Shown piece after piece: positions 25,867-25,992 of a stretch of DNA of 64,000 bases. The position numbers and the translations under genes are program-made. This DNA is from Escherichia coli O127:H6 str. E2348/69 (lineage in GTDB: Bacteria > Pseudomonadota > Gammaproteobacteria > Enterobacterales > Enterobacteriaceae): the NCBI RefSeq assembly GCF_000026545.1, contig NC_011601.1, one strand, 5' to 3'. Numbering within the stretch: position 1 is the stretch's first letter; every line of letters begins with the position of its first letter. Below the pieces are notes generated by a model, which made no database searches, was not told the origin of the DNA, and saw only the letters and a list, made by a program, of their open reading frames with translations.

Positions 25867-25992
25867 GACATCATCCTTCCACTGTTGACCATGACAGGAT
25901 GTTCAGTCATCAGGCGTTAACACGCGATAGGGGCAAAAAAAAGCAGCGGTACGTCGTTACCGCTGCTGGAATGTTTCGCCACACCGTATCAG

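What the first reader, a model, noticed from the sequence alone, without database searches (positions are those of the whole stretch)
25867..25992. motA leader and fliC 3' UTR may encode sigma28-dependent UTR-derived sRNAs
UTR-derived sRNAs have been described from the motA 5' UTR (MotR) and the fliC 3' UTR (FliX) in E. coli. The corresponding regions here (25867-25992 and about 51447-51619) are present with structured elements: a hairpin plus T-run downstream of flhC, and the fliC terminator hairpin. I cannot confirm the sRNA sequences from memory, so this is positional inference only.
Basis: inference. Interest (0 to 1): 0.25.

Follow-up and report, generated by a model that had tools for sequence, protein, structure and literature searches.

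The report
Known flagellar sRNAs MotR and FliX
The two flagged regions are the already-described flagellar small RNAs MotR and FliX, here in an enteropathogenic E. coli E2348/69-type genome, so the finding is correct but ordinary; the one twist is that this strain's MotR carries the ancestral form of the target-recognition stretch rather than the K-12 form.

Summary
MotR lies at 25935-26029 (-) and matches K-12 MotR at 93 of 95 bases. FliX lies at 51422-51616 (-) and matches at 187 of 195 bases. Both are annotated ncRNA genes in MG1655 (b4828, b4827). The window matches only E2348/69-lineage assemblies at 100%. A published RIL-seq study of that strain already lists motR and fliX, and found FliX in Hfq chimeras.

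- MotR's sigma-28 promoter and its first 37 nt lie inside flhC. The interval 25867-25992 holds only MotR's 3' 58 nt plus the 68-nt post-terminator motA leader.
- The fliC/FliX terminator (51429-51445) lies just outside the second quoted interval. The hairpins inside that interval are REP elements.

MotR-like elements with a covarying terminator occur in 81 of 114 Enterobacterales species genomes.

The only new point: both MotR differences from K-12 (A49U, C54A) fall inside the duplex with rpsJ, and rpsJ is invariant. The window allele is ancestral; K-12's is derived. Predicted pairing is weaker (-15.1 vs -22.4 kcal/mol).

Verdict: already known, low interest.

The parts
26036..26062 (-). Sigma-28 (FliA) promoter of motR and of motAB-cheAW, inside the flhC coding sequence. 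-35 TAAACTTT at 26062..26055, 11-nt spacer, -10 GCCGATAT at 26043..26036.
   Evidence: Two mismatches to the consensus TAAAGTTT-N11-GCCGATAA (5 matches in the window against 0.65 expected). Identical to K-12. Conserved in all 114 Enterobacterales loci. The paper places the motR promoter within flhC.
25935..26029 (-). MotR sRNA orthologue, 95 nt. Nt 1-37 overlap the 3' end and stop codon of flhC (TAA at 25995..25993). Nt 38-95 lie in the intergenic region.
   Evidence: 93/95 identical to published and annotated K-12 MotR. Differences are A49U and C54A. The length agrees with the ~95-nt Northern band.
25976..25985 (-). MotR seed region (nt 45-54, GGUGUGGCGA). Contains the intact triplet hit by the loss-of-function M1 mutation (nt 46-48) and both differences from K-12 (nt 49 and 54).
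   Evidence: M1 position from primers SM467/468 and the gBlocks. rpsJ partner site from the rpsJ-M1 gBlock. Coordinates. Duplex energies.
25935..25967 (-). MotR intrinsic terminator, which is also the terminator downstream of flhDC. 10-bp stem 25967..25942, 6-nt loop, U8 tail. This is the expected Hfq-binding 3' end.
   Evidence: On 68 aligned sequences the helix is 99.3% paired, and 3 pairs show compensatory changes.
25867..25934 (-). motA leader downstream of the MotR terminator, present only in read-through motAB-cheAW mRNA. Holds the motA Shine-Dalgarno GGAAGGA. A possible SD-sequestering stem pairs CAUCCU 25901..25896 with AGGAUG 25877..25872.
   Evidence: The stem is 88% paired in 49 sequences, but compensatory changes occur in one clade only. 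Fold z-score is only -1.2. Weak.
53343..53369 (-). Sigma-28 promoter of fliC, the parental transcript of FliX. TAAAGGTT-N11-GACGATAA, with the transcription start near 53336.
   Evidence: The start is inferred from the paper's fliC (-70) in vitro template.
51422..51616 (-). FliX sRNA orthologue, 195 nt. Begins 4 nt after the fliC stop codon (TAA 51622..51620) and ends at the fliC terminator U-tract.
   Evidence: 187/195 identical to MG1655 fliX b4827 with no gaps. The 5' end matches cloning primer SM044 apart from U2C.
51422..51530 (-). FliX-S, the ~100-nt 3' processing product. Contains one REP hairpin, the seed and the terminator.
   Evidence: 104/109 identical to the published FliX-S in vitro template. 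Fold z = -4.5.
51448..51460 (-). FliX seed region GUCAGCAACGUGC (FliX nt 157-169), unchanged from K-12. The M1 triplet GCA is at nt 161-163.
   Evidence: The four nearby SNPs (nt 145, 148, 149, 151) lie 5' of the stretch that I paired by hand with the rpsS site; that pairing was not checked with a tool.
51422..51445 (-). fliC/FliX intrinsic terminator. 7-bp all-G-C stem 51445..51429, 3-nt loop (one loop SNP, C180A), U7 tail.
51458..51618 (-). REP-type palindromic units that make up most of the FliX body.
   Evidence: Sub-threshold Rfam hits to the REP-derived families naRNA4 (51458-51508, 41.9 bits against a gathering score of 59.5) and ES036 (51512-51555). Long predicted helix. The paper states that FliX-S includes a REP sequence.

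Best explanation
The window carries the orthologues of two characterised sigma-28-dependent, Hfq-binding, UTR-derived sRNAs of E. coli.

**MotR.** FliA-RNA polymerase starts at 26029 from a promoter inside flhC. Most transcripts stop at the intrinsic terminator 58 nt past the flhC stop codon, giving the 95-nt MotR. Read-through gives motAB-cheAW mRNA. In K-12, MotR pairs through nt ~43-54 inside the coding sequences of rpsJ and fliC. It raises S10 and fliC levels and, through S10-NusB antitermination, raises flagellar gene read-through and flagella number.

[quoted passage not shown] In K-12 it pairs inside fliC, rplC, rpsS and rpsQ coding sequences, lowers their expression and lowers flagella number.

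**Shown here:** sequence orthology, synteny, promoters, terminators, and conservation with covariation.

**Taken from the literature (K-12 work):** sigma-28 dependence, Hfq binding, targets and phenotypes.

**Inferred:** that the same holds in this strain. The caveat is that its MotR seed differs from K-12 at two paired positions.
For: - **Sequence identity:** 93/95 for MotR and 187/195 for FliX against the published and annotated K-12 RNAs.
- **Synteny:** the same gene context, flhC-[MotR]-motA and fliC-[FliX]-fliA.
- **Promoters and terminators:** sigma-28 promoter matches at the published positions, and strong terminators.
- **Regulatory genes:** fliA (239 aa) and flhDC are intact in the window.
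- **Spread in E. coli:** MotR is present at >=95% identity in 5376 of 5426 complete E. coli genomes.
- **Spread beyond E. coli:** a MotR-type element occurs in 81 of 114 Enterobacterales species genomes, and its terminator helix is 99.3% paired with 3 compensatory pairs.
- **Strain identity:** the window matches only E2348/69-lineage assemblies at 100%.
- **Published data for this strain:** the EPEC E2348/69 RIL-seq study lists motR (E2348CN_0026) and fliX (E2348CN_0021). It found FliX in significant Hfq chimeras with ahpC and raiA.
- **Mechanism:** PMC10578931 sections read.
Against: - **No expression data:** nothing measured here for this strain.
- **MotR not seen in EPEC chimeras:** in the EPEC RIL-seq study MotR was not in significant chimeras and its RNA-seq count was near zero (baseMean ~0.7). 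The growth conditions did not favour flagellar expression.
- **Weaker predicted MotR pairing:** both MotR differences from K-12 fall inside the duplex with rpsJ. Predicted energy drops from -22.4 to -15.1 kcal/mol, against -11.2 for the non-functional M1 mutant.
- **FliX 5' end:** FliX has a SNP at nt 2, next to the processing site.
- **No Rfam check possible:** no Rfam match reaches any family's threshold in either region, so no curated covariance model could be used as an independent check.
Confidence: 0.93

Rival explanations
1. In this strain the hairpin plus T-run after flhC is only the flhDC operon terminator and a motA leader attenuator. The short transcript is a by-product with no trans-acting role.
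For: The terminator sits 27 nt after the flhC stop codon, so it also ends flhDC transcripts. MotR was not found in significant Hfq chimeras in EPEC, and its read count was near zero. The seed is two base pairs weaker against rpsJ.
Against: The sigma-28 promoter, +1 context, 95-nt length and terminator are all as in K-12 apart from the two seed SNPs. In K-12 the RNA binds Hfq, and a chromosomal seed mutation changes flagella number. The non-coding core G48-U49-G50-G51 is >=90% conserved across 68 sequences from many genera, which a mere spacer would not explain. The EPEC data came from conditions that do not favour flagellar gene expression.
Confidence: 0.05
2. The fliC 3' UTR is only a REP array plus terminator that stabilises fliC mRNA. 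FliX fragments are decay intermediates without regulatory function in this strain.
For: Most of the 195 nt is REP palindrome. Only 3502 of 5426 E. coli genomes have a contiguous match covering >=80% of the query, so the UTR body is variable.
Against: The seed and the terminator stem are identical to K-12, the only terminator change being one loop base. FliX was found in significant Hfq chimeras in E2348/69 itself. In K-12 the seed mutation abolishes rpsS binding and a compensatory rpsS mutation restores it.
Confidence: 0.02

Closest known systems
MotR (E. coli K-12 MG1655 b4828; Melamed et al. 2023, eLife 12:RP87151)
   Same: Same locus and synteny, the same sigma-28 promoter inside flhC, the same +1, the same 95-nt length, an identical terminator, and 93/95 identity. 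The M1 seed triplet and the nt 6-8 TGC (the site of the MotR* mutation) are intact.
   Different: A49U and C54A fall in the seed. Both positions pair with rpsJ nt 146 and 141 in K-12, and neither can be compensated by a synonymous rpsJ change. The window allele is the ancestral one, shared with other Escherichia species, Citrobacter and Salmonella. K-12 carries the derived allele.
FliX and FliX-S (E. coli K-12 MG1655 b4827; same paper)
   Same: Starts 4 nt after the fliC stop codon and ends at the fliC terminator. 195 nt with no indels. Identical seed region, the same REP-containing body, and 187/195 identity.
   Different: Eight substitutions: nt 2 (next to the 5' processing site), 73-74 (between REPs), 145/148/149/151 (5' of the seed) and 180 (terminator loop). 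The parental fliC is the H6 allele (548 aa) rather than K-12 H48 (498 aa).
Other UTR-derived Hfq sRNAs, for example MicL from the cutC 3' UTR (in this same window, 9288-9595) and OppX from the oppA 5' UTR
   Same: Same general design: an sRNA that shares a promoter or terminator with a protein-coding transcript and ends in an Rho-independent terminator bound by Hfq.
   Different: Different genes, regulons and targets, with no sequence relationship.

Membership tests
MotR sRNA | Sequence orthology to the published 95-nt MotR over its full length | tested here: met
   93/95 identical, no gaps.
MotR sRNA | Location: starts in the 3' end of flhC and ends upstream of motA | tested here: met
   26029..25935 (-). 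flhC stop codon at 25995..25993, motA start at 25866.
MotR sRNA | Sigma-28 promoter within flhC, shared with motAB-cheAW | tested here: met
   TAAACTTT-N11-GCCGATAT at 26062..26036, identical to K-12. Only the sequence was tested. Sigma-28 dependence of expression cannot be tested with these tools.
MotR sRNA | Rho-independent terminator with a U-tail (Hfq-binding 3' end) | tested here: met
   10-bp stem plus U8. Covariation is supported.
MotR sRNA | Seed (nt ~43-54) complementary to rpsJ CDS nt 141-152 | tested here: inconclusive
   The M1 triplet is intact, but 2 of the 12 contiguous pairs are lost. RNAduplex gives -15.1 against -22.4 kcal/mol for K-12 and -11.2 for M1. The rpsJ site is identical in 5406 of 5425 genomes.
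MotR sRNA | Accumulates as a ~95-nt Hfq-bound RNA in vivo | not testable with these tools
   Shown for K-12. In EPEC E2348/69 it is annotated but absent from significant chimeras under non-flagellar conditions.
FliX sRNA | Sequence orthology to the annotated 195-nt FliX | tested here: met
   187/195 identical, no gaps.
FliX sRNA | Corresponds to the fliC 3' UTR, from just after the stop codon to the fliC terminator | tested here: met
   51616..51422 (-). fliC stop codon at 51622..51620. Terminator at 51445..51429.
FliX sRNA | Seed GUCAGCAACGUGC including the M1 triplet | tested here: met
   Identical to K-12, at 51460..51448.
FliX sRNA | Processed from sigma-28-dependent fliC mRNA and bound by Hfq | not testable with these tools
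   The fliC sigma-28 promoter is present. Literature: FliX is in Hfq S-chimeras in E2348/69.
Any Rfam family | Match to a curated covariance model at its gathering score | tested here: not met
   No match reaches any family's gathering score in either region. Only sub-threshold REP-family and chance hits appear. No MotR or FliX family came up in these scans.

The most novel reading that the evidence does not exclude
This strain's MotR carries the ancestral seed (U49/A54).

- **Species-level evidence:** the 66 other species-level Enterobacteriaceae sequences that retain the GUG-N-GG seed context all keep U at position 49. A at that position is seen only in K-12.
- **Within E. coli:** there is a stepwise series. 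U49/A54 occurs in 1136 genomes, including this one. U49/C54 occurs in 1161, including O157:H7. A49/C54 occurs in 2974, including K-12. A49/A54 is never seen.
- **Effect of each step:** each derived step adds one base pair to the duplex with the invariant rpsJ site.

The MotR-S10 arm described in K-12 could therefore be a recently strengthened, lineage-specific interaction. In EPEC and other U49/A54 strains MotR may act more weakly on S10 or mainly through other targets.
Probability: 0.25. Interest if true: 0.4.

Novelty: already known. Interest (0 to 1): 0.12.

Why it matters
It matters little as a discovery. Both RNAs are published, annotated in MG1655, and already listed for this very strain.

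The practical value is correct annotation, because RefSeq/PGAP annotation of the E2348/69 assembly shows no ncRNA at either place.

The seed polymorphism adds a caution. K-12-derived target maps for MotR, especially rpsJ/S10, should not be transferred to EPEC-type strains or other strains with the U49 allele without testing.

Tried and rejected
- **Rfam scans:** run at gathering scores on the whole window and at E<=10 on both regions. No MotR or FliX family matched. The only hits were chance or REP-derived.
- **NC_011601:** I tried to fetch it to verify that the window is NC_011601 2048001-2112000. The record is not in the collection. The offset remains an inference from the RIL-seq FliX coordinates 2099422-2099439, which would equal window 51422-51439, the FliX 3' end.
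- **Hidden small ORFs:** looked for in 25867-26029. Only mechanical 21-45 aa ORFs appear, with no support.
- **Whole-length RNAduplex:** MotR against fliC gave unrealistically long duplexes. I replaced this with site-restricted calculations.
- **Compensatory change in rpsJ:** rejected. The 60-nt site is exact in 5406 of 5425 genomes, including strain SK1144, which has the window's MotR allele. The two positions are codon position 2 of Phe49 and position 3 of Glu47, where no synonymous change could restore pairing.
- **SD-sequestering hairpin in the motA leader:** 88% paired, but covariation comes from one clade only and the fold z-score is -1.2. Kept only as a passing note.
- **Follow-up literature:** the one follow-up search (MotR, rpsJ, FliX; from 2021) returned no paper whose title or abstract concerns MotR seed variation.

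Full report
**What is there.** The window is E. coli flagellar region DNA, with the relevant genes on the minus strand:
- flhD 26574-26933
- flhC 25993-26571
- motA 24979-25866
- fliA 50580-51299
- fliC 51620-53266

The interval 25867-25992 is exactly the flhC-motA intergenic region. It contains a 10-bp, 6-G-C hairpin at 25967..25942 followed by T8. Downstream of fliC there is a 7-bp all-G-C hairpin at 51445..51429 followed by T7. The described structures are therefore real.

**Identity test.**
- Melamed et al. 2023 (PMC10578931) Supplementary file 3 gives the MotR and FliX-S in vitro templates and the cloning primers that start at each 5' end.
- The MG1655 RefSeq record annotates ncRNA motR (b4828, 95 nt) and fliX (b4827, 195 nt).
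- Window 26029..25935 (-) matches MotR end to end at 93/95.
- Window 51616..51422 (-) matches FliX at 187/195 with no indels.
- No Rfam family matches either region at its gathering score, so no curated model could be used as a further check.

**Anatomy and corrections.**
- MotR +1 is at 26029, which is 34 nt before the flhC stop codon (TAA 25995..25993).
- Its sigma-28 promoter TAAACTTT-N11-GCCGATAT (26062..26036) lies in the flhC coding sequence, as the paper states.
- FliX begins 4 nt after the fliC stop codon and ends at the fliC terminator.
- The parental sigma-28 promoter TAAAGGTT-N11-GACGATAA is at 53369..53343.
- The sigma-28 consensus scan gives 5 matches in the window against 0.65 expected. 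Four of them sit at positions that I take, from their location, to be class 3 promoters (tar, motA, fliC, fliD).

**Source strain and prior knowledge.**
- Both 241-nt segments are 100% identical only to three E2348/69 / O127:H6 assemblies out of 5,426 complete E. coli genomes.
- PGAP annotation of that genome shows no ncRNA at either place.
- The EPEC E2348/69 RIL-seq study (PMC8550237, Table S4) already lists motR as E2348CN_0026 and fliX as E2348CN_0021.
- FliX occurs in significant Hfq chimeras with ahpC and raiA. MotR does not, and its read count was near zero. Melamed et al. note that the conditions did not favour flagellar expression.

**Conservation.**
- MotR is present at >=95% identity in 5376 of 5426 E. 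coli genomes.
- A pattern scan of one genome per species, using the FlhC C-terminal peptide, returned 114 Enterobacterales loci and one chance hit.
- All 114 keep the sigma-28 promoter.
- 81 loci (66 distinct sequences) have a 91-96-nt MotR-type element. The genera include Escherichia, Citrobacter, Salmonella, Enterobacter, Lelliottia, Kosakonia, Buttiauxella, Cedecea, Atlantibacter, Mangrovibacter and Franconibacter.
- Of the remaining 33 loci, most, from Serratia, Pectobacterium, Brenneria and relatives, have unrelated sequence there; a few were excluded only because the contig ends or the T-run is interrupted.
- On the 68-sequence alignment the terminator helix is 99.3% paired and 3 pairs show compensatory changes. 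None of 500 shuffles reached the observed covariation score.

**How it works.** The mechanism comes from K-12 literature and is inferred for this strain.
- MotR forms by termination of sigma-28 transcripts ahead of motA. It binds Hfq and pairs inside the rpsJ and fliC coding sequences.
- MotR raises S10. Through S10-NusB antitermination it promotes flagellar operon read-through and raises flagella number.
- FliX is processed from fliC mRNA. It pairs inside fliC, rplC, rpsS and rpsQ, and lowers their expression and flagella number.
- The FliX seed and the terminator stem are unchanged here; the terminator differs only at one loop base. Its eight SNPs lie at nt 2, 73-74, 145-151 and 180.

**The one non-trivial observation.**
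- Both MotR differences from K-12 (A49U, C54A) lie in the seed, next to the M1 triplet (nt 46-48).
- The rpsJ-M1 construct identifies the partner site as GCGCUUCAC, rpsJ nt 141-149.
- K-12 MotR nt 43-54 forms 12 contiguous pairs with that site. The window allele loses the pairs at nt 49 and 54.

| MotR allele | RNAduplex energy at the rpsJ site (kcal/mol) |
|---|---|
| A49/C54 (K-12) | -22.4 |
| U49/C54 | -18.7 |
| U49/A54 (window) | -15.1 |
| M1 (non-functional) | -11.2 |

- The rpsJ site is identical in 5406 of 5425 genomes. The two rpsJ positions, Phe49 codon position 2 and Glu47 codon position 3, allow no synonymous compensation.
- Among the species-level sequences, U49 is >=90% conserved. 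In the recognisable GUG-N-GG seed context, K-12 is the only sequence with A. The window allele is therefore ancestral.
- Short-probe counts across complete E. coli genomes give A49/C54 in 2974, U49/A54 in 1136, U49/C54 in 1161 and A49/A54 in none. This fits a two-step derivation.
- Whether this changes regulation is untested. In the paper a compensatory rpsJ mutation did not restore MotR-M1 binding, so simple duplex arithmetic is an incomplete guide.

**Verdict.** The finding is already known and of low interest. The seed allelic series is a modest lead for anyone studying MotR outside K-12.

Noticed in passing
window 25976-25985 (-); loci L003, L005-L119: MotR seed allelic series. The window has U49/A54, the ancestral state shared with other Escherichia species, Citrobacter and Salmonella. 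O157:H7-type strains have U49/C54. K-12-type strains have A49/C54. A49/A54 is absent from 5,426 genomes. Each derived step adds one predicted base pair to the invariant rpsJ site.
   Followed up: yes
window 25872-25901 (-): In the post-terminator motA leader, CAUCCU (25901..25896) can pair with AGGAUG (25877..25872), covering the motA Shine-Dalgarno sequence. The stem is 88% paired in 49 Enterobacteriaceae sequences. Compensatory AGUCCU/AGGACU occurs in only one clade, and the fold z-score is only -1.2. This is a possible translational control hairpin with weak support.
   Followed up: partly
loci L014, L015, L017, L018, L034-L036, L038, L039 and others (group B): Serratia, Pectobacterium, Brenneria and relatives keep the sigma-28 promoter inside flhC but have unrelated sequence with different hairpins where Enterobacteriaceae have the MotR body and terminator. 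These could be non-homologous leader RNAs.
   Followed up: no
window 26903-27122 (+): Homologue of the K-12 antisense RNA AsflhD (b4839), 214/220 identical, overlapping the flhD 5' end on the opposite strand.
   Followed up: partly
window 21450-21476 (-) and 21466-21543 (+): A perfect sigma-28 consensus TAAAGTTT-N11-GCCGATAA, presumably the tar promoter. It overlaps, on the opposite strand, an Rfam C0465 sRNA hit (111.6 bits).
   Followed up: no
window 9288-9595 (-); 5310-5352 (+); 41329-41627 (-): Rfam gathering-score hits elsewhere in the window: MicL (the cutC 3' UTR sRNA, 371 bits), ES036 (a REP-derived family) and three tRNA genes.
   Followed up: no
window 51615 (-), FliX nt 2: A U-to-C substitution lies one base from the FliX 5' processing site (UCG|UUGUAAC in K-12, UCG|UCGUAAC here). 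It could affect cleavage efficiency. Separately, only 3502 of 5426 E. coli genomes have a contiguous match covering >=80% of the query, so the REP-rich body is variable.
   Followed up: no
window 29268-29294 (+): A fifth sigma-28-like match with 3 mismatches, overlapping a 477-aa ORF on the opposite strand. Probably chance.
   Followed up: no
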